Source: a virus
Taxonomy: Duplodnaviria; Caudoviricetes
Strand: one strand, 5' to 3'
DNA length: 64,000 nucleotides
IMG/VR virus record: IMGVR_UViG_3300021255_002239
Span: 638 to 64,637 of that record
Every line of letters begins with the position of its first letter. The stretch's first letter is position 1. Under the pieces are notes generated by a model. It worked only from the letters and a program-made list of their open reading frames with translations. It did not search any database and was not told where the DNA came from. The translations under genes were made by a program, and so were the position numbers. Positions 6,623 to 16,644 of the stretch are shown piece after piece.

Positions 6623-7599
6623 GACATCACCTCTGCTTCCCCTTCAATAAGGAATGGTGTCGAGTTTTCCTGCTCTGCGATCTCTTCTCTGGAAACCTTA
6701 TAGACTTCATCCATCTGGATCATTGACTGGTTCGCCAAAGTACTCATATCCTTCGGGAATCTACGGATAGCATTGTTCCGCATCTTCCTTATGATCATTG
6801 ACTCGGAAGAATCCAACCAGGCTGCGGAGATGTAAGGCTTTGCCACCTCGCACTTGAGCATGTCATCTACGGTTTCGCACTGCCTGAGAGCTTCGTAGAT
6901 TTCCTCTTTCTTTGCTTTTATCTTCTGGATCTGCTCTGCTGTGGCATCGTACCTGCTCTTACAGATACCAAATGTTTCATTCATCAGGTTCTGCCGGATG
7001 TGCGCCATCAGATTGACCTTTACGCTGTCACGTTCAGCGATCAGATAATCTTCTCCGTCTTTCCCTTTAAGCTTCACAGGATAAACGACTCTGATCACTT
7101 TACTGGATGTTCCTTTCGGCTCCCAGACAGGCGGTTCGACAGCAAGTCCTTTACGTTTCGGGAATTCAAACACATCCCCCTCGCAGACTTCCCAGACCGG
7201 ATAAACCTTCTGGACGTTCACTCCGAAATTTCTGAGAAGTGCATCGTATCCAGATCCCATGATGCCCATCTCTACTTCCTTTACCCAGTTAGTTCCAATC
7301 TTCTTATTCCGAAGCTGGAAGAAAACCTCTGCCGGAAATGATGTGGCTGACAGTTTAAGGGAAGCGCATCTAAGGACAATGTCTCTCAGATTTGATGTGT
7401 CAACCTGTGATAAATCAGCTTTGTCTGTGTTCTGGACAAGCTGATAAATGGCTCCCATCGCATCGACAGCACACTTCTTGGAATAATCGTCAAACTCGAT
7501 CATTCCAGAATCAAACTTGGCTGAAACCTCGTTCAAGGCCCAGTTCGTCCAGCCGCCCAAATTTGTTGTGGATGTGATCTGTATTTCGTTCTTTTCCAT
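6619..7599 (-). CDS. Putative single-strand annealing recombinase (RecT/Bet-like)
   Basis: Position between SMC-like ATPase and MBL nuclease/SSB; C-terminal ESMIIRKMRNNAIRRFP resembles the RecT signature. Confidence 0.55.
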   Translation of the reverse strand: MEKNEIQITSTTNLGGWTNWALNEVSAKFDSGMIEFDDYSKKCAVDAMGAIYQLVQNTDKADLSQVDTSNLRDIVLRCASLKLSATSFPAEVFFQLRNKKIGTNWVKEVEMGIMGSGYDALLRNFGVNVQKVYPVWEVCEGDVFEFPKRKGLAVEPPVWEPKGTSSKVIRVVYPVKLKGKDGEDYLIAERDSVKVNLMAHIRQNLMNETFGICKSRYDATAEQIQKIKAKKEEIYEALRQCETVDDMLKCEVAKPYISAAWLDSSESMIIRKMRNNAIRRFPKDMSTLANQSMIQMDEVYKVSREEIAEQENSTPFLIEGEAEVMS

Positions 7600-8887: not shown

Positions 8888-10824
8888 GGCGATACAACCA
8901 GCTTCGGATCGTCCGTTACCTTCAAAAGGATTAACTGGCAATCCATCTTCGGAAGGTTGAAATCATTGACTGACTCTGCATTGTCGATAAACAACGGAGC
9001 TGTCACTCCAAGTTTTTTGGAGAAGGTTTTTATGATGTCCATTGCGCATACGATCCTGTGACCAGAATTCATATCCCGATATTTCACACCATTTAGCGAG
9101 ATCTCACACTCTTCCGTAATCCCACCGTTAATCTGCTGATTAAAAAGTGAGAAGTTGGTTACTTCGAAGCATGATGTAATCTTTTTCGACAGAAGCTCCG
9201 ATTTCTGGATGCTGAATTCTTCCAGAGTAATAAGCTTTTGTTCTGTATAAGCGATCTTCTGCCCAACGGTACGCTGTTCTTCTTCCAGTTCCTCTATACG
9301 ATGCGCTATGTCAGCATTCGTTGCTTTGATGGCATCAATCTCGGCTATCTGTTGCCGTACCGCATTCAGTTTTCCTTTAGTGCCGTTAATCTGGAGATTC
9401 ATCTCATCGATCTTCCAGGAGACTTCCTTGCTGGCACTGATTTTCTCCACGATGGATTCCAGTTCCTGATGCAGTGCAATCATCTTTTCATCTGCATTGA
9501 TATCCAAGTCAGGTCCGTATGCTTCATAAGCCTCATTGGCAGACCGCATCTCTGCTTTGGCTTTCTCAGATTCCTCTTCCAGAAGAGCAAGCGATATTTT
9601 TGCTTTTTCAAGATCCTGCTCGATGGAAGTAATGGAATTTTTAATTTCCCAACCTTTTGCTTTATGTGTTTCAAGATCCTGTTTTTTGAGATTTTCAAAG
9701 GCAGACTTTATTCTGGTGATCTCAGACTTCGGAAGCATCTGACCGCACGATTTACATACGGTCTGGCTTTCGTCAAACTCTCGACCGGCAGCTGCTTTGT
9801 ATGCCTGTCCTTCCGAATTAAGGCTTTCTCTCAGGACGGCAATCTTATTTGTATAGATGTCCACCTCTCCCTGGCATCTGGCACGTTTACGGTCGATATC
9901 CGAAAATGCAGTTTTCTTCTCGGAATAGATGCCATAAAGCCTATCCTTCTCGGATCTGCGCTTTGCAGACTCTTCCAAAATCTTGGCATTGATTTCATTC
10001 TGGATTTCAAGCTGTCTCTTGCGCAGTTCTGCCTCGGAAGAATCTGCCTTGAGAGCATCCATCTTCGCTGACAGTTCCGAAAGCTCTGCATCGAGATCCG
10101 CTTCATGATTGCGTAATTCTTCTGCGTCAGGCACTTCTCTGACCTGTTTGGAAACCTCGTCAACTCTTACCGGAAGTTCCTTCTGGAGTTTATTGAGATC
10201 ACGCAGTTCACGTTTTGCCTTTTCGGTGGATTTTTCCACACCGGCATTCAGAACATCTTCCCTGATGATTTCCCATCTGGTCGGATCGCTGTTAAGCACA
10301 TCCTCATCGGTCACATCACCGCAAAACTTTAACAGCAGTGCTTTCTTTTCCTGCCATTTCAGACCGGAGAAGTACCGAAGGTCCGCAATCAGACGGAAGG
10401 TTTCCTCTGGAAGGATCTCAGCGACCTTTGCTTTGTATTCTTTTTCGCTCTGGGGAAATCCGTTGATTTCAAACGCATTCGTGTTTCCTTCGAATGTCGG
10501 AGAAGTACTTCCTCTGCGCTTCGTCCACTTCTGCTTCTGGGTCTTTTTGAGAATGGTTTCTTTCCCATCTACATCCAGGACGGCTTCTACGGAGATCTCA
10601 ACGTTATCAATCTCTTTGCCGTCTGAACCAACAGGACGGATGCCAAAAGATGTGGCTCCTTGACTATCCTTGTTGAACAGGAGCCACAGAAACGCATCCA
10701 GAATACTCGTTTTGCCAGATGCGTTCTGACCGGAGATGGTGGTTACATCTCCAAAAGAAATGTCTGAAGATTTGCATCCTTTGAAGTTACGGATGCTTAA
10801 TGATTTCAAGATAATGTTTGACAT
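8884..10824 (-). CDS. SMC/Rad50(SbcC)-like AAA ATPase
   Basis: Walker A ISGQNASGKTS, long coiled coil with central CKSCGQ zinc hook, MNSGHR signature, LFIDNAE Walker B. Confidence 0.88.
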   Translation of the reverse strand: MSNIILKSLSIRNFKGCKSSDISFGDVTTISGQNASGKTSILDAFLWLLFNKDSQGATSFGIRPVGSDGKEIDNVEISVEAVLDVDGKETILKKTQKQKWTKRRGSTSPTFEGNTNAFEINGFPQSEKEYKAKVAEILPEETFRLIADLRYFSGLKWQEKKALLLKFCGDVTDEDVLNSDPTRWEIIREDVLNAGVEKSTEKAKRELRDLNKLQKELPVRVDEVSKQVREVPDAEELRNHEADLDAELSELSAKMDALKADSSEAELRKRQLEIQNEINAKILEESAKRRSEKDRLYGIYSEKKTAFSDIDRKRARCQGEVDIYTNKIAVLRESLNSEGQAYKAAAGREFDESQTVCKSCGQMLPKSEITRIKSAFENLKKQDLETHKAKGWEIKNSITSIEQDLEKAKISLALLEEESEKAKAEMRSANEAYEAYGPDLDINADEKMIALHQELESIVEKISASKEVSWKIDEMNLQINGTKGKLNAVRQQIAEIDAIKATNADIAHRIEELEEEQRTVGQKIAYTEQKLITLEEFSIQKSELLSKKITSCFEVTNFSLFNQQINGGITEECEISLNGVKYRDMNSGHRIVCAMDIIKTFSKKLGVTAPLFIDNAESVNDFNLPKMDCQLILLKVTDDPKLVVSP

Positions 10825-10925
10825 TATTTTTCTCCTCATTTATACTGAAGATGCCCGTTTTTGTTATATTTGTGGGTTTTCATAGTATGGATGTCTCATG
10901 GATCCCTCTATCTATGGGACATCTT

Positions 10926-11393
10926 TTAATTTGCGATTTTCATAAGGAAATCCCTTATGACTTTCTCGACATCAATGAGGTCCTTGTACTTCTTCTGGAA
11001 CATCTCCAGTTCCTTGTAAGCGTTTTCAAGTACCTTGTTCTTTGTGTCTTCATCCGAAAGAGCAACGGTGATAGGTCTGTACTTGGCCTTATCGTTGCGA
11101 TCATTGACAGAAACAAATGCTCTGACAGGTTCTGTCGGATATTCTTTCGAATCATCAACGGAAACGCATACCAGGTTCCCGATGATCATTTTGCTCTGGT
11201 GCAGACGATATCTCTCGGCTGCTTTGCCATCATCCCATTCATAACAAGAATGAAGTACCGCATCTTCCGGTCTTGAATCGTCCAGAAGAATCTGAGGAGT
11301 TACCTCTCCATAAATCTCATCCAAATGTTCTATGTGTTCTCCTGCTGTCTGTGCCGATACTTTGTATATCGGTGTCTTCCAATCGTAAACCAT
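10926..11393 (-). CDS. Uncharacterised protein directly downstream of the GGY-NN array (candidate accessory factor)
   Basis: Start refined to MVYDWKTP with AGAGAGGAG RBS; the longer ORF start lies inside the repeat. Confidence 0.7.
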   Translation of the reverse strand: MVYDWKTPIYKVSAQTAGEHIEHLDEIYGEVTPQILLDDSRPEDAVLHSCYEWDDGKAAERYRLHQSKMIIGNLVCVSVDDSKEYPTEPVRAFVSVNDRNDKAKYRPITVALSDEDTKNKVLENAYKELEMFQKKYKDLIDVEKVIRDFLMKIAN

Positions 11394-11431
11394 ATTGATT
11401 CTCCTCTCTTTTTGATTGGTGAAAGTTACAT

Positions 11432-11749
11432 GCCTGCCATACCATACCCTGCCCTGCCACACCGCACCTCACCAGACCGCACCGTGCCTTGCCTGCCGCA
11501 CCCCACCTTGCCTAACCTCGCCTCACCTTGCCTCACCTTGCCTTGCCTGCCACGAACAAGCCAAGCCTAACCTTGCCATACCCCACCTCAACTCACCAAA
11601 ACACACCGCTCCACACCTTGCCTGCCTTACCACGCCTCACCGCACCGAACCGCACCATGCCTTGCCATACCAAACCTGACCTGCCACACCCAACCACTAC
11701 CTACCGAACCGTACCGCACCATGCCAAACCAAAACCCACCATACCTGCC
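11432..11749 (-). repeat. GGY-NN pentamer array of five units (59, 54, 75, 59, 64 nt in plus order) delimited by GGCAGG; candidate guide-RNA array
   Basis: Plus strand parses as nn-RCC with 5-nt period; CCTGCC junctions at 11433, 11492, 11546, 11621, 11680, 11744; about 65 triplets, only 6 deviate from GGY. Confidence 0.95.
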
Positions 11750-11753
11750 GTGA

Positions 11754-12422
11754 TTATGCGTTGCTCAGTTCAAGATGATATCTTCCGAAATCTCCATCTT
11801 TCTCCGGCCTCCACTCACCGATACCGCAAACAAGACCACCGGCATCGATGCAGTTCAGAATCTGCTCGATTGTCATATTTCCGTTCTCGTTGTATTCCAT
11901 CAAAAATTCAATACTCCAGTTGCGGAATTCTCCACGATACCGCAGGTCGGCAGAACCGTTTCCGATGCGAACCATATCCTCACGCATGATTGGTGGATCG
12001 CTGATGATCTCTGCCATGTCACCATATGATGTTCTCAGGAAGTAAGAACCACGAAGTCCCATCTGATCTTTGACCCACTTCTGTCTGTACGCTGCACTGT
12101 TGGCAGCCTGTTTGATTCCTGTCAGCGGAAATCCGAATTTTGCACCGTTCTCAATGGCTTTCTGGAACTCTTCTGGTGTAGACTTGGGTTTATCTGTCAG
12201 CCAGTACATGGACTGAACGAAATCATCAAACGGATCCTTGGGGTCTTTTGCTTTGGTCTTCGTTTCGTTCGTCTGATTATCAATCATAATTTTTTTGGCT
12301 TTCTCGCTCCAGGCATGTACGATCAGTGGAGTATCTCCAACAATCTTAAGCGGGATGATTTTCATTCTTCTGGATTTGATCTCTACTAAAGTTGCTGCTG
12401 ACGATTTTGCTGCTTTTGCCAT
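11754..12422 (-). CDS. Stand-alone RAMP/Cas7-like RNA-binding protein (Vipr-like)
   Basis: IPLKIVGDTPLIVH first strand, FPLTGIKQAANSAA helix (cf. Csm3/Cmr4 iPGSSlKG), RYRGEFRNWSIEF strand, C-terminal Gly-rich loop GGLVCGIGEWRPEKDGDFGRY; no cas genes or CRISPR array nearby. Confidence 0.72.
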   Translation of the reverse strand: MAKAAKSSAATLVEIKSRRMKIIPLKIVGDTPLIVHAWSEKAKKIMIDNQTNETKTKAKDPKDPFDDFVQSMYWLTDKPKSTPEEFQKAIENGAKFGFPLTGIKQAANSAAYRQKWVKDQMGLRGSYFLRTSYGDMAEIISDPPIMREDMVRIGNGSADLRYRGEFRNWSIEFLMEYNENGNMTIEQILNCIDAGGLVCGIGEWRPEKDGDFGRYHLELSNA

Positions 12423-12517
12423 TGATTTCCTCTCTTTCTAGTGCTATACTGCACTTGTAGGCATAATTAGTTGTTATGTTTATACTTGCTGTGTCCTGAT
12501 GCTCTCGCCAAAGTCCA

Positions 12518-12802
12518 TCAGGGCATTTTTCTTTCTCCAAACATGAAGTCTCGGTTTCTCTGCTTGCGGTATTCCTCATAATCGATGACCTCTTCTTCCT
12601 GGTCTTCTTTTGTTTCCAATCTCTCATCGTTCCATCGGAAGAAAGTCTCCATCGCAAAAGCGACAGTAATTCCAATAATGACTCGATGAAACCATGTCAC
12701 ATCGATCCAGACACTTGACGCAGCAGCCAAAATGCCGATAACAACATCAGCCACATGCCGTGACCGAATTCTTGTGAGTTTTTCTAGTATTCTTCCCCTC
12801 AT
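12518..12802 (-). CDS. Small membrane protein
   Basis: Two hydrophobic segments, charged C-terminus. Confidence 0.6.
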   Translation of the reverse strand: MRGRILEKLTRIRSRHVADVVIGILAAASSVWIDVTWFHRVIIGITVAFAMETFFRWNDERLETKEDQEEEVIDYEEYRKQRNRDFMFGERKMP

Positions 12803-12820
12803 TTTTCTTCCCCCACATTC

Positions 12821-12964
12821 TTAGTGTTCAAGATAGTATTGGTAGTCCTCAACTATCTCTTTTCCCTGGCAACGAGACGGATCGTAGTTATCGTCCCAGT
12901 CATACTGGTCAATGCCGTACTCTTCCATTAACCAATCAAAAAATGTCATTTTCTCTGCTACCAT
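12821..12964 (-). CDS. Small hypothetical protein
   Basis: Start refined to MVAEKMTFF, overlapping upstream stop. Confidence 0.5.
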   Translation of the reverse strand: MVAEKMTFFDWLMEEYGIDQYDWDDNYDPSRCQGKEIVEDYQYYLEH

Positions 12965-13311
12965 TTTTCCAACCTCTCTTTCAGAACTTGCAGGACAATG
13001 TCCTTTATCTGTTCTTTGTCTGTTACTTCCGGCACTATATCCCACTGGTTGAGTGCCAGTTGCTTGATAATGATTTCTGGCTGATATTCTGGAACATGTT
13101 TTCTCATGCTCCGGTGCTGAAGGAGTCTTCTGTTACTTATGTAGTGAATAAATGCTGGGAGAAAAACTCTTGTTACACCGTCTTCCACCACTGCACTCTT
13201 TCCATATAGAAGATTTTCGTTCTTGAGTTCTTCGATGCGTCTACGGACAGTGATCTCAGACATTTCGAATTTCTCTGCCAGGGACTTTGCCGACATATAC
13301 ATTTTCCTCAC
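12958..13311 (-). CDS. HTH DNA-binding protein, excisionase-like
   Basis: SAKSLAEKFEMSEITVRRRIEEL helix-turn-helix; follows cro. Confidence 0.6.
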   Translation of the reverse strand: MRKMYMSAKSLAEKFEMSEITVRRRIEELKNENLLYGKSAVVEDGVTRVFLPAFIHYISNRRLLQHRSMRKHVPEYQPEIIIKQLALNQWDIVPEVTDKEQIKDIVLQVLKERLEKW

Positions 13312-13315
13312 CTCG

Positions 13316-13331
13316 GTTTAACGCTTTAAAC
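13316..13331. promoter_or_regulatory. Operator copy downstream of cro (GTTTAA-N4-TTAAAC)
   Basis: GTTTAAcgctTTAAAC, near-identical to the operator at 13598. Confidence 0.65.
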
Positions 13332-13334
13332 TAT

Positions 13335-13544
13335 TTAGGCAAAAAAATATATACCAGCTTCAGTAATTGGAATTTCAAGTGCATTGCACCATTGCACTAT
13401 ATCTTCCTGGTCGAACTGTACCCAACCATTCATCTTTTTGGATACAGAAACATCGGAAATTCCAAGGAATTCTGCGAATTTACCCTGAGAGCCAAATCGC
13501 TCTATGATCCTTCCTCGTAATTTGTCATATGTGTATCCAGCCAT
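13335..13544 (-). CDS. Cro-like HTH repressor (DUF739-like)
   Basis: YDKLRGRIIERFGSQGKFAEFLGISDVSVSKKMNG...F.Q.DI; divergent from cI. Confidence 0.85.
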   Translation of the reverse strand: MAGYTYDKLRGRIIERFGSQGKFAEFLGISDVSVSKKMNGWVQFDQEDIVQWCNALEIPITEAGIYFFA

Positions 13545-13596: not shown

Positions 13597-13625
13597 AGTT
13601 TAACACTTTAAACCTACTATGTCAA
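13597..13625 (-). promoter_or_regulatory. Lytic promoter (TTGACA-17-TAAACT) overlapped by palindromic operator 13598-13613
   Basis: Minus-strand -35 at 13625-13620, -10 at 13602-13597; GTTTAAcactTTAAAC in the spacer/-10. Confidence 0.7.
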
Positions 13626-13665: not shown

Positions 13666-13694
13666 TTGATTGTTTTAAACCGATGGTTTATAAT
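13666..13694 (+). promoter_or_regulatory. cI promoter (TTGATT-17-TATAAT) with degenerate operator 13665-13680
   Basis: Canonical 17-bp spacing upstream of the repressor RBS. Confidence 0.65.
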
Positions 13695-13730: not shown

Positions 13731-14270
13731 TTGAAGACAGAAAGCGGTCCAGAATTAAGGGAAATATCTCAGAACAGAATAAAGCAATTGATTGACGAAC
13801 TTGCGAATGGTAGCCAGCAAGAATTTTCCGAACAGACAGGTGTAGCAAAAGCATCTATATCTCAGTATGTCAACAAAACAAATGCTCCCGGAAACATCAC
13901 TGCAGCCAAGATTGGTCAGAAGTATGGAATAAATCCGCTATGGATAATGGGATTTCCTGTTCCAAAAACCACCACAGATAATTCTGCTATTATCAATTTG
14001 CCAAATAAAAATAAAGATATCACTCTCACAAATCAGGAAATAGATTTGATTGAACGTTACCGCACCCTTGATGAGTACGGTCTTAAGATGATTATTACTG
14101 TTTTAGATATGGAATGCGAAAGATGTGAAGACGAAAACAATAGCACAATTTTCTTGCAACAGGAAGAAATCGAAAGTCTTCCGTTCAGAGATAGATTAGA
14201 AGCAATTAAGAACAGTGATGGATTCGGTGTCAAAGTTGCCAGAAAAAGTACAAGGGGGAATCAAAAATGA
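13731..14270 (+). CDS. CI-like XRE repressor
   Basis: SQQEFSEQTGVAKASISQYVN...INPLWIMG; divergent from cro, upstream of ImmA-like protease. Confidence 0.88.
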   Translation: MKTESGPELREISQNRIKQLIDELANGSQQEFSEQTGVAKASISQYVNKTNAPGNITAAKIGQKYGINPLWIMGFPVPKTTTDNSAIINLPNKNKDITLTNQEIDLIERYRTLDEYGLKMIITVLDMECERCEDENNSTIFLQQEEIESLPFRDRLEAIKNSDGFGVKVARKSTRGNQK

Positions 14271-15543: not shown

Positions 15544-16644
15544 ATGTGGGTAGAGAGGAAGAAGGACGGCAAGCTTCTTGCCAAGGAGCGTTATATCGAC
15601 CCATTAACAGGCAAAACGAAGCGAGTGGCAATTTCTATCGACCGTGACACAAAAGCCTGTAGAAAGACCGCTCAGAGCCTTCTGGAAGCAAAAATAGAAT
15701 CTCTGCTGTCTGTGCAGGACGATGCGAACATTACTTTGAAGGAATTGTCCGAAAAATACATCGAACGGCAGATGAAAAGCACTAGATCTCAGACATGGAG
15801 AAGAGATAAGTCTGTCATCGGTGTAGTTGTTCAGTTGCTAGGCGAAGATACGCTTGCGAATAAAGTGACCGCACGCTACGTTGATGAGACTTTTAGGTCC
15901 ACAGGGAAAGAGAATGTAACGCTTAACTCTTACCTGGAACAATTCAAACGGATGTATAAATGGGCATACCGTAATGATTTTGTTAATGACATATCCTTTT
16001 TGATAAAGTTGCAGAAATATCCAGATAATAAAAAAGAGCGGATCGAGGATAAGTTTTTATCATCAGATGATCTGTCGAAGCTGTTGTCCAGGATGAAAGT
16101 AACCAAATGGAGATTGTTGACTCACTTTCTTGCATTGTCTGGTCTTCGAATTGGAGAAGCTCTTGCTTTACTGAACGAAGATGTGACAGATGTGATTCGT
16201 GTCAATAAAACTTATGATGTACATGAAGGAAATGTGACAGACAGTGCCAAAACAGATGCTGGAAACCGTGAAGTTTTCATTCAGCCAGAACTGGCAGACG
16301 TTGTGAGTGACATCAGAGCATACATCAGAGAAGAATCGTTCGCCAAAGGATACAGAACGAACATTTTCATTCCTGACGAGGATGGAGACTATGTCAGATA
16401 TTTCGCTTATAACAAATATCTGAAAGAAAACACACTTGCTGTTCTGGGACGGAAATTGACACCACATGCTCTTCGCCATACTCATGTATCCCTTCTGGCA
16501 GAACAAGGATATCCACTGGATGCCATCAGCAGAAGAGTTGGTCATGAAGATAGTAAGATTACAAAAGCGATTTATCTCCATGTTACTGAAAAACAAAAAG
16601 AAAAAGACCGTCAGATGATGACGCAGATAAGGCTTTTGAAATAA
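15544..16644 (+). CDS. int: Tyrosine integrase
   Basis: SGLRIGEALAL, HALRHTH, RRVGH, IYLH catalytic residues; adjacent attP-like site. Confidence 0.95.
   Translation: MWVERKKDGKLLAKERYIDPLTGKTKRVAISIDRDTKACRKTAQSLLEAKIESLLSVQDDANITLKELSEKYIERQMKSTRSQTWRRDKSVIGVVVQLLGEDTLANKVTARYVDETFRSTGKENVTLNSYLEQFKRMYKWAYRNDFVNDISFLIKLQKYPDNKKERIEDKFLSSDDLSKLLSRMKVTKWRLLTHFLALSGLRIGEALALLNEDVTDVIRVNKTYDVHEGNVTDSAKTDAGNREVFIQPELADVVSDIRAYIREESFAKGYRTNIFIPDEDGDYVRYFAYNKYLKENTLAVLGRKLTPHALRHTHVSLLAEQGYPLDAISRRVGHEDSKITKAIYLHVTEKQKEKDRQMMTQIRLLK

What the first reader, a model, noticed from the sequence alone, without database searches (positions are those of the whole stretch)
11432..11749. Decoded NN strings read like codon positions 1-2: a gapped guide that may skip the wobble base
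Seen: in coding-strand order the NN strings are U1 AT GG TT TT AT GC AC TC AG GT TG GT; U2 CA TT AT AA AT GC TC GC GA GT AA; U3 AA GT GC GT TT GA GA GG AT AA TA TT TT (CGT); U4 AA AA GA AA GA GA TA AA GG GC; U5 AA AC GC CT GA GC GT AG AG AT AT. All five differ, so this is not simple slippage expansion. Inference: written as NNx codons they allow protein-like peptides, e.g. U2 QLIKIASAEVK, U3 KVAVLEEGIKYLL, U4 KKEKEEYKGA, U5 KTALEAVRRII. These readings are chosen among degenerate options, so they are suggestive only. If targets are recognised as NN-x-NN-x in register with codons, synonymous third-position changes could not provide escape. I found no convincing self-target by eye but could not search exhaustively.
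Basis: partly seen in the sequence, partly recalled or inferred. Interest (0 to 1): 0.82.

Follow-up and report, generated by a model that had tools for sequence, protein, structure and literature searches.

The report
Phage VIPR guide-RNA array (staggered form)
The five-base-periodic tract is the guide-RNA array of a phage VIPR system, a CRISPR-like RNA-guided DNA silencer described in 2026 preprints.

Summary
Window 11434-11749, minus strand, holds about 57 GGYNN pentamers in five blocks of 12, 11, 13, 10 and 11 units. Each block ends in GGCAG, whose last G is also the first G of the next block.

The upstream 222-aa gene (11754-12422, minus) is a Vipr protein. Its family profile hits the solved SUSP1 Vipr (PDB 36pp) at E 4.7e-37, its GGY-contacting residues are conserved, and its predicted fold is Cas7/Csm3-like. 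Protein and array go together in both directions: 75 of 80 homolog loci carry same-strand arrays, and 83 of 120 loci found by the DNA pattern alone encode a homolog.

Three 2026 bioRxiv preprints describe this system as VIPR. NN dinucleotides pair with DNA, one target base is skipped per unit, and that base usually lies on the wobble position. They also describe staggered arrays with a 1-nt overlap.

In this clade the NN composition matches codon positions 1-2 of the sense strand (r 0.84) and no other phase.

I found no significant natural target for the five guides. The best matches are at chance level.

The scan had already met VIPR in at least 49 other genomes. Verdict: a new member of a known kind.

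The parts
11754..12422 (-). vipr gene: 222-aa Vipr protein, a minimal RAMP/Cas7-like subunit that binds one GGYNN unit per protomer
   Evidence: A profile of 71 homologs hits PDB 36pp_D 'SUSP1 Vipr protein' at E 4.7e-37; the single sequence hits at 1.4e-9. AF2 model has pLDDT 93.5. Top Foldseek hits are Csm3/Cas7 subunits of type III and VII CRISPR complexes. H36, R163, E203, W204 and R205 align to SUSP1 H17, R138, D177, W178 and R179, and are conserved in 65, 71, 71 (E or D), 50 (63 if F/Y are counted) and 71 of 71 homologs. It matches phrog_4652 and no Pfam family.
11434..11749 (-). Staggered vrRNA array: five guide blocks of GGYNN units, each closed by a GGCAG unit that overlaps the next block by 1 nt; a GGCAG also precedes U1 at 11745-11749
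   Evidence: The GGCA|GG boundary makes up 386 of 508 4-nt slips in relatives' arrays and 208 of 280 in arrays found by pattern alone. This matches the 'staggered arrays' of fig. S18 of the VIPR preprint.
11681..11745 (-). vrRNA U1: 12 guide units plus terminal GGCAG; units 3 and 10 are degenerate
11622..11681 (-). vrRNA U2: 11 guide units plus terminal GGCAG, all canonical GGY
11547..11622 (-). vrRNA U3: 13 guide units (three degenerate), then an irregular GTTCG-T, then GGCAG
11493..11547 (-). vrRNA U4: 10 guide units plus terminal GGCAG; purine-rich and low-complexity
11434..11493 (-). vrRNA U5: 11 guide units plus terminal GGCAG
10926..11393 (-). Candidate vap (vipr-accessory protein): 155 aa, with a winged-helix-like N-terminal part
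   Evidence: A homolog lies on the same strand as vipr in all 102 loci where both were found: 77 of the 80 Vipr-homolog loci and 26 of the pattern-found loci, at a median of 227 nt downstream. AF2 model has pLDDT 93.8. VIA-align gives Z 5-6.8 to many winged-helix domains over residues 1-113, and Foldseek gives only E > 0.2 to MarR/MecI. It matches phrog_15946, no significant Pfam family and no PDB sequence relative.

Best explanation
This is a complete VIPR (Viral Interference Programmable Repeat) locus in the early operon of a temperate gut or rumen phage of Clostridia. It consists of vipr, a staggered array of five vrRNAs, and a vap-like gene. By homology with the characterised SUSP1 and P. 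fulva systems, the array is transcribed with the operon and cut at or near the GGCAG|G junctions into about 55-70-nt vrRNAs. Vipr protomers polymerise along each vrRNA, one per pentamer. They sequester each GGY and present the NN dinucleotides. The filament binds double-stranded DNA whose sequence reads NN-x-NN-x, skipping one base per unit, and silences transcription of a competing mobile element. Because the skipped base usually falls on codon position 3, synonymous mutations in the target do not give escape. Shown here: family membership, array anatomy, co-occurrence of protein, array and accessory gene, and the codon-1-2-like composition of the NN. Inferred: transcription and processing, the 1-nt skip in this clade, silencing, and the identity of the targets.
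For: Vipr homology to the solved SUSP1 Vipr. Cas7/Csm3-like fold. RNA-contact residues named in the cryo-EM preprint are conserved. 75 of 80 loci encoding a homolog (down to about 40% identity) have GGYNN arrays on the same strand, mostly just downstream. In the other direction, 83 of 120 viral contigs found with the DNA pattern alone encode a homolog. Guides in the clade mostly have 9-16 units, as published. NN positions are hypervariable between loci. The conserved GGCA|GG boundary fits the published staggered arrays. NN composition equals codon positions 1-2 of the sense strand. No self-target reaches 80% NN match, as the preprint reports for its systems. Phage context: integrase, HTH repressor and IrrE-type protease lie on the + strand and the early operon on the minus strand.
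Against: No natural target was found for any of the five guides, so the 1-nt skip and wobble register are not demonstrated for this locus or clade. The 310-guide all-against-all scan of 1.6 Mb showed no excess at skip 1 over skips 0, 2 and 3 or over shuffled guides. The 3' pseudoknot tail of the characterised type II vrRNAs is absent, and by the preprint's wording the staggered form was not among the architectures confirmed by small-RNA sequencing. The composition test could in part reflect constraints on the RNA itself; for example, C is depleted at N4 (0.126 vs 0.212).
Confidence: 0.93

Rival explanations
1. It is a VIPR-family locus, but this tail-less, staggered-array clade decodes differently from type II. 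It might use another skip length, target RNA rather than DNA, or have a function other than silencing competitors.
For: The skip rule was demonstrated only for type II systems. No target was found here, and there was no skip-1 excess in the local scans. The tail that caps the type II filament is missing.
Against: The residues that hold G1, G2 and Y3 are conserved. The preprint states that all seven types use GGY/NN or a related consensus and applied the 1-nt rule to types III and V. N4 and N5 follow codon positions 1 and 2 rather than any other phase, as a 3-nt target period predicts.
Confidence: 0.05
2. The tract is a protein-wrapping RNA with no guide function. On this view it is a TRAP-like site in which a ring or filament protein binds GGY triplets spaced by 2 nt, in order to regulate translation of the downstream gene.
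For: The period is 5 with a conserved triplet and a 2-nt spacer, in blocks of 10-13 units, and it sits just upstream of a gene start. This was my first working idea.
Against: The partner protein is a RAMP homologous to a solved Vipr, not a TRAP-like protein. The spacers are hypervariable between relatives and have codon-like composition, which a pure spacer would not need.
Confidence: 0.01
3. It is a DNA-level element: a G-rich non-template strand that forms two-tetrad G-quadruplexes or R-loops and acts as a replication origin or recombination hotspot next to the SbcC-like ATPase gene.
For: There are GG runs every 5 nt on the non-template strand, and the position is in the replication and recombination module.
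Against: This does not explain the strict GGY, the GGCAG boundaries, the tight linkage to a RAMP gene across hosts from Clostridia to Alphaproteobacteria, or the published RNA-protein structures.
Confidence: 0.01

Closest known systems
VIPR systems with staggered vrRNA arrays (fig. S18 of bioRxiv 10.64898/2026.04.26.720920)
   Same: Vipr protein, GGYNN units, consecutive vrRNAs that overlap by one nucleotide with no tail in between, and a phage location.
   Different: I could not see the figure or the type table, so the type number (I-VII) of this locus is not assigned. In the preprint's wording the staggered form was not among the architectures confirmed by small-RNA sequencing.
Type II VIPR of Escherichia phage SUSP1 (Vipr structure PDB 36pp; vap1; four vrRNAs)
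   Same: Homologous Vipr with the same GGY-contact residues, vrRNAs of 9-16 GGYNN units, a small accessory gene predicted to bind DNA, and a phage-borne locus.
   Different: SUSP1 vrRNAs are about 100 nt with an invariant 3' tail that forms a pseudoknot, and they are separate units. Here five guides abut with only a GGCAG unit between them, and the array lies between vipr and the accessory gene. Vipr identity is low outside the C-terminal third.
Cas7-family backbone subunits of Class 1 CRISPR effectors (Csm3, Cmr4, type VII Cas7)
   Same: RRM core, glycine-rich loop and thumb. The subunits polymerise on the guide with periodic base flipping. These are the best structural matches (for the comparison made in the preprints).
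   Different: There is no CRISPR repeat-spacer array and no other cas gene at the locus. The guide period is 5 nt, with three bases sequestered and two read, rather than 6 nt with five read. The target period is 3 nt.
TRAP (trp RNA-binding attenuation protein) binding sites
   Same: A conserved triplet plus a 2-3-nt spacer, about 11 repeats per site, and an RNA wrapped on an oligomer (textbook knowledge, not tested here).
   Different: The protein fold is unrelated. The TRAP triplet is GAG or UAG and its spacers carry no information.

Membership tests
VIPR system | A Vipr protein: a minimal RAMP with RRM core, G-loop and thumb, homologous to characterised Viprs | tested here: met
   Profile hit to 36pp_D at E 4.7e-37 over profile positions 20-206 of 211. 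Single sequence at 1.4e-9. The AF2 model's top Foldseek hits are Csm3/Cas7.
VIPR system | Residues that hold the GGY motif (SUSP1 H17, R138, D177, W178, R179) | tested here: met
   They align to H36, R163, E203, W204 and R205. Among 71 homologs: H 65, R 71, E or D 71, W 50 (plus 13 F/Y), R 71. Residue roles are taken from the cryo-EM preprint.
VIPR system | vrRNA genes beside vipr: tracts of about 9-16 GGYNN units with conserved GGY and hypervariable NN | tested here: met
   Five tracts of 10-13 units lie 5 nt downstream of vipr. NN strings are not shared with relatives. Arrays accompany homologs in 75 of 80 loci.
VIPR system | A vipr-accessory (vap) gene in the locus | tested here: inconclusive
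   A 155-aa gene co-occurs on the same strand in 77 of 80 relatives and has a winged-helix-like fold at modest Z 5-6.8. Sequences of the published vap1-6 were not available, so homology to them was not tested.
VIPR system | vrRNAs are expressed, processed and bound by Vipr | not testable with these tools
   No RNA run holding the stretch was listed. The runs that could be laid are contigs, which cannot show RNA ends.
VIPR system | Targets follow the 1-nt skip rule, with skip bases on the wobble position | tested here: inconclusive
   No significant target was found. Indirect support comes from NN composition, which matches codon positions 1-2 of the sense strand and no other phase.
Type II VIPR (SUSP1 / P. 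fulva clade) | An invariant structured 3' tail (pseudoknot) after each repeat tract | tested here: not met
   Blocks abut with only a GGCAG unit between them. Only about 40 nt of non-repeat sequence follows U5 before the next gene starts. No Rfam family matches.
CRISPR-Cas (Class 1) | An array of direct repeats of about 25-40 nt separated by unique spacers | tested here: not met
   Only 5-nt and derived periods are found in 10000-13500. The tract is a continuous pentamer lattice.
TRAP-type RNA site | A TRAP-fold oligomeric protein partner and GAG/UAG triplets | tested here: not met
   The triplet is GGY. The conserved partner is a RAMP.

The most novel reading that the evidence does not exclude
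In this tail-less, staggered-array clade the guides are overwhelmingly sense-oriented copies of codon positions 1-2. One guide of this phage (U1) also has an in-phase 19 of 24 match to the small membrane-protein gene just upstream of vipr. This could mean either partial-match autoregulation of the VIPR operon, or that guides are born from, or aimed at, orthologues of the phage's own early genes in competitors. Either would bear on how vrRNAs acquire new specificities, which the preprints leave open.
Probability: 0.08. Interest if true: 0.55.

Novelty: new member of a known kind. Interest (0 to 1): 0.25.

Why it matters
However, VIPR and its wobble-skipping code were published as preprints in April-October 2026, and this scan has already met the system in at least 49 other genomes.

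This locus adds three things:
- A clean example of the staggered, tail-less array form in a gut or rumen Clostridia phage.
- Clade-wide figures for the linkage of array, Vipr and the 155-aa accessory gene.
- An internal, target-free test (NN composition against codon phase) that supports the codon register outside the type II systems where it was shown.

The staggered form has not been confirmed by RNA sequencing according to the preprint. A locus with five sharply bounded guides is therefore a convenient substrate for that experiment.

Tried and rejected
**Databases with no match**
- Rfam at permissive thresholds gave nothing relevant.
- blastn of 10000-13500 against the phage records gave no match.

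**Working ideas dropped.** I first considered a TRAP-like wrap, a G-quadruplex or R-loop origin, a single-strand-annealing-protein site and a Chi cluster. All were dropped once the partner protein proved to be a Vipr.

**Local target scans**
- The five guides were scanned against the phage's own genome and 1.6 Mb of related loci at skips 0-3. Best scores equalled those of shuffled guides, except the U1 self-match.
- 310 guides from all loci were scanned against the same 1.6 Mb. There was no excess at any skip, and the top hits showed no pattern.

**Exact sub-pattern scans of the viral-contig collection**
- U5 gave 6 hits, U2 31, U1 30, U3 3 and the full U4 pattern 0.
- The counts for 16 fixed bases imply about 1e11 searchable positions. 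On that basis about 12 sites at 20 of 22 or better are expected by chance.
- The best U2 hit is 20 of 22, in phase, in a DUF669 gene at L217:7511-7542. This is chance level, with 1.2 such extensions expected.
- The best U1 hit is 21 of 24 in two homologous contigs, with 0.8 expected.
- No locus collected good matches for two or more guides.

**Other collections**
- The metagenome scan for nine U5 units gave 11 hits. Three reached 21 of 22, against 0.56 expected, but they lie in three unrelated ORFs.
- The full U2 pattern with up to 2 mismatches found nothing in 239 genomes of the order of the closest host MAG, and nothing in five host MAGs with up to 3 mismatches.

**Expression and other attempts**
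- No RNA holder was listed for the stretch.
- The one run labelled metatranscriptomic is probably DNA and is kept as contigs, so it says nothing on expression.
- The residual-dinucleotide test did not separate codon phases well.
- Supplementary tables of the preprint are not held, so no type number could be assigned.

Full report
**1. What is in the sequence**

Window 11432-11749 is the intergenic space between two minus-strand genes, 11754-12422 (222 aa) and 10926-11393 (155 aa). On the minus strand it is an uninterrupted lattice of GGYNN pentamers. A six-unit GGYNN pattern with up to one mismatch matches 28 times. All matches lie in 11436-11745 on the minus strand, and 100 shuffles gave none. 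It is the only such tract in the 64-kb window.

The lattice slips by -1 four times, always at GGCA|GG. This can be read as a GGCAG unit whose last G is the first G of the next block. U1 and U3 contain a few degenerate units, and U3 ends with an irregular GTTCG-T before its GGCAG.

**2. Context**

The window is a virus record of 64.6 kb. It is a temperate phage. An integrase (15544-16644), an IrrE-type protease and an HTH repressor lie on the + strand. A leftward early operon starts near a promoter-like site at 13597-13625. The operon runs in this order:
- an HTH protein
- a 94-aa membrane protein
- the 222-aa gene
- the array
- the 155-aa gene
- an SbcC-like ATPase

The closest relatives of the 222-aa protein in cellular genomes are in MAGs of Clostridia, Eubacteriales, Oscillospiraceae, Acutalibacteraceae and Faecalibacterium. 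The stretch is held whole by two runs labelled gut metagenome, which may be its source. Bovine and sheep gut runs hold small shares of it.

**3. Protein and array are a conserved pair, shown from both sides**

- *From the protein:* of the 80 viral-contig loci that encode a homolog of the 222-aa protein (77% down to about 40% identity), 75 carry arrays of ten or more GGYNN units. Every array is on the gene's strand, and most lie just downstream.
Of these, 54 encode a homolog by one-pass search and 83 after iteration.
- *The third gene:* the 155-aa gene co-occurs on the same strand in 77 of the 80 loci and in 26 of the pattern-found loci, at a median of 227 nt downstream of vipr.
- *The boundary:* GGCA accounts for 386 of 508 four-base slips in the relatives' arrays and 208 of 280 in the pattern-found set.
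- *The guides:* none of about 330 guides is shared with the window, and only one pair is shared between any two loci.

**4. Identification**

A profile of 71 homologs hits one solved structure, 36pp chain D, 'SUSP1 Vipr protein', at E 4.7e-37 over nearly its whole length. The single sequence hits it at 1.4e-9. The AlphaFold model is confident (pLDDT 93.5). Its best matches in the fold library, which predates 36pp, are Csm3/Cas7 backbone subunits of type III and type VII CRISPR effectors.

**5. What is published**

A full-text search found three 2026 bioRxiv preprints on VIPR, Viral Interference Programmable Repeat systems.
- *10.64898/2026.04.26.720920* describes a phage-borne Vipr protein and vrRNAs of 9-16 GGY/NN units. 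It shows by pangenome search, competitive binding and GFP repression that only targets with one skipped base per unit are recognised. The skip bases fall overwhelmingly on codon wobble positions, and the authors say this would defeat escape by synonymous mutation.
- *The same paper* lists seven types and several array architectures. One is staggered arrays in which consecutive vrRNAs overlap by 1 nt (fig. S18 legend), which is the anatomy seen here.
- *10.64898/2026.04.26.720927* gives cryo-EM structures. One protomer binds per repeat, GGY is flipped out and held by H17, R138, D177, W178 and R179, NN is presented for pairing, and one target base is extruded.
- *10.64898/2026.10.15.759431* shows wobble-aligned targeting of a satellite recombinase and of rival vipr genes.

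In the window's Vipr those five residues align to H36, R163, E203, W204 and R205. They are conserved across the 71 homologs.

**6. How it most likely works here**

By homology, the array is transcribed with the early operon and cut at or near the GGCAG|G junctions. Each 55-70-nt vrRNA is then coated by 10-13 Vipr protomers. The filament binds duplex DNA that reads NN-x-NN-x and blocks transcription of a competing phage, prophage or satellite in the same Clostridia host.

The 155-aa protein is the likely accessory factor. Its N-terminal 113 residues resemble winged-helix domains at modest scores (Z 5-6.8; Foldseek E > 0.2). That agrees with the DNA-binding Vaps the preprint predicts for several types, but it does not prove homology to them.

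- *Shown here:* membership, anatomy and linkage.
- *Inferred:* expression, processing, the skip length in this clade, and silencing.

**7.

*Mismatch-tolerant local scans.* I scanned the phage's own genome and 1.6 Mb of related loci with the five guides at skips 0-3. Best scores equalled those of shuffled guides. The same was true for 310 guides from all loci. These collections are too small to be a fair test.

*Exact sub-pattern scans of the viral-contig collection.* These gave 6, 31, 30, 3 and 0 hits for U5, U2, U1, U3 and the full U4 pattern. The counts for 16 fixed bases imply about 1e11 searchable positions, so about 12 sites at 20 of 22 or better are expected by chance (my arithmetic).
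- The best U2 hit is 20 of 22. It is therefore not significant.
- No other guide matched that contig.
- U1 reached 21 of 24 in two homologous contigs, with 0.8 such extensions expected.

*Other collections.* A metagenome scan with nine U5 units gave 11 hits. Three were at 21 of 22, against 0.56 expected, but they lie in three unrelated ORFs. Nothing was found for U2 in 239 genomes of the order of the closest host MAG. So no natural target is established.

**8. An indirect test that does not need targets**

If NN strings are copies of codon positions 1-2, their composition should follow those positions and no other phase.
- For 105 guides from the window's relatives, the 16 NN frequencies correlate with sense-strand positions 1-2 at r 0.84. 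The other values are -0.04 (positions 2-3), -0.21 (3-1), and 0.09, 0.39 and -0.64 for the antisense phases.
- N4 has the G-richness of position 1. N5 follows position 2 to within about 0.03 for each base. Neither looks like position 3.
- In a per-locus likelihood classification, 137 of 284 guides are called sense phase 0. That is the same rate as true pseudo-guides cut from genes in that phase (136 of 284).
- In the relatives' set the rate is 63 of 104, and the four auto-called window guides all classify this way.

It also suggests a sense-strand bias in this clade. RNA-level constraints may contribute, since C is depleted at N4, and the residual-dinucleotide version of the test did not discriminate well.

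**9. A loose end**

The best own-genome match of any guide is U1 at 12705-12739 on the minus strand, at 19 of 24. It is in phase and in sense inside the 94-aa membrane-protein gene just upstream of vipr. Only 0.8% of 1,000 NN-order shuffles of U1 reach 19 in this genome. That is about 0.04 after correcting for five guides. It falls below the preprint's 80% threshold and may be chance. I record it as a lead.

**10. Verdict**

The element is a new member of a known, very recently described kind. The scan has already reported VIPR loci in at least 49 other genomes, including a staggered-array case.

Noticed in passing
window 12705-12739 (minus), inside ORF 12518-12802: Guide U1 matches its own phage at 19 of 24 NN positions under the 1-nt skip. 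The match is in codon phase and in sense, in the 94-aa two-helix membrane-protein gene immediately upstream of vipr. Only 0.8% of 1,000 shuffled U1 guides reach 19 in this genome. It could be chance, autoregulation, or a trace of the guide's origin or of its intended orthologous target.
   Followed up: partly
window 11260-11523 (run X3, record 14): A bovine-gut run from another study (2025) holds a 267-nt contig covering the vap start, U5 and part of U4, with five differences in all. Three are listed individually, at 11295, 11428 and 11465. The one at 11465 falls on an NN position of U5 and changes GC to AC in the guide; the other two lie outside guide NN positions.
   Followed up: partly
window 11457-11580: In both runs that hold the phage, the assembled contigs end or overlap inside the array. 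X1 has pieces ending at 11580 and starting at 11555; X2 at 11474 and 11457. The pentamer lattice breaks short-read assemblies, so such arrays are probably under-represented or truncated in metagenome contigs.
   Followed up: no
L183-L200 versus L121-L182 (loci): Gene order differs within the family. In closer relatives, and in this window, the array lies between vipr and the 155-aa gene. In the more distant ones the 155-aa gene follows vipr directly and the arrays come after it. Some loci (L145, L146, L150, L151, L156, L158, L163, L170, L178, L180, L196) also or only have arrays upstream of vipr.
   Followed up: partly
L283-L298: Vipr homologs at 37-42% identity occur in Alphaproteobacteria genomes (Rhizobium leucaenae, Methylobacterium, Martelella, Mesorhizobium, Neotabrizicola). 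The family therefore spans Firmicutes and Proteobacteria phages.
   Followed up: no
window 13597-13625 (minus) and 13666-13694 (plus): Back-to-back promoter-like sites lie between the HTH repressor gene (13731-14270, plus) and the leftward early operon that contains the VIPR locus. This is a typical lysis-lysogeny switch layout, identified by consensus matches only.
   Followed up: no
L217:6910-7608 (minus), site 7511-7542: The best near-match of guide U2 (20 of 22, in phase, sense) lies in a DUF669 gene with an acidic tail, in a 61-kb viral contig. It is statistically at chance level, and no other guide matches that contig.
   Followed up: yes
guides of L001-L200 and the window: C is under-represented at the first variable position (N4: 0.126-0.147, against 0.21-0.26 at codon position 1). 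The second variable position tracks codon position 2 closely. This may be a constraint of the Y3-N4 step in the Vipr filament, or avoidance of CNN codons in targets.
   Followed up: no
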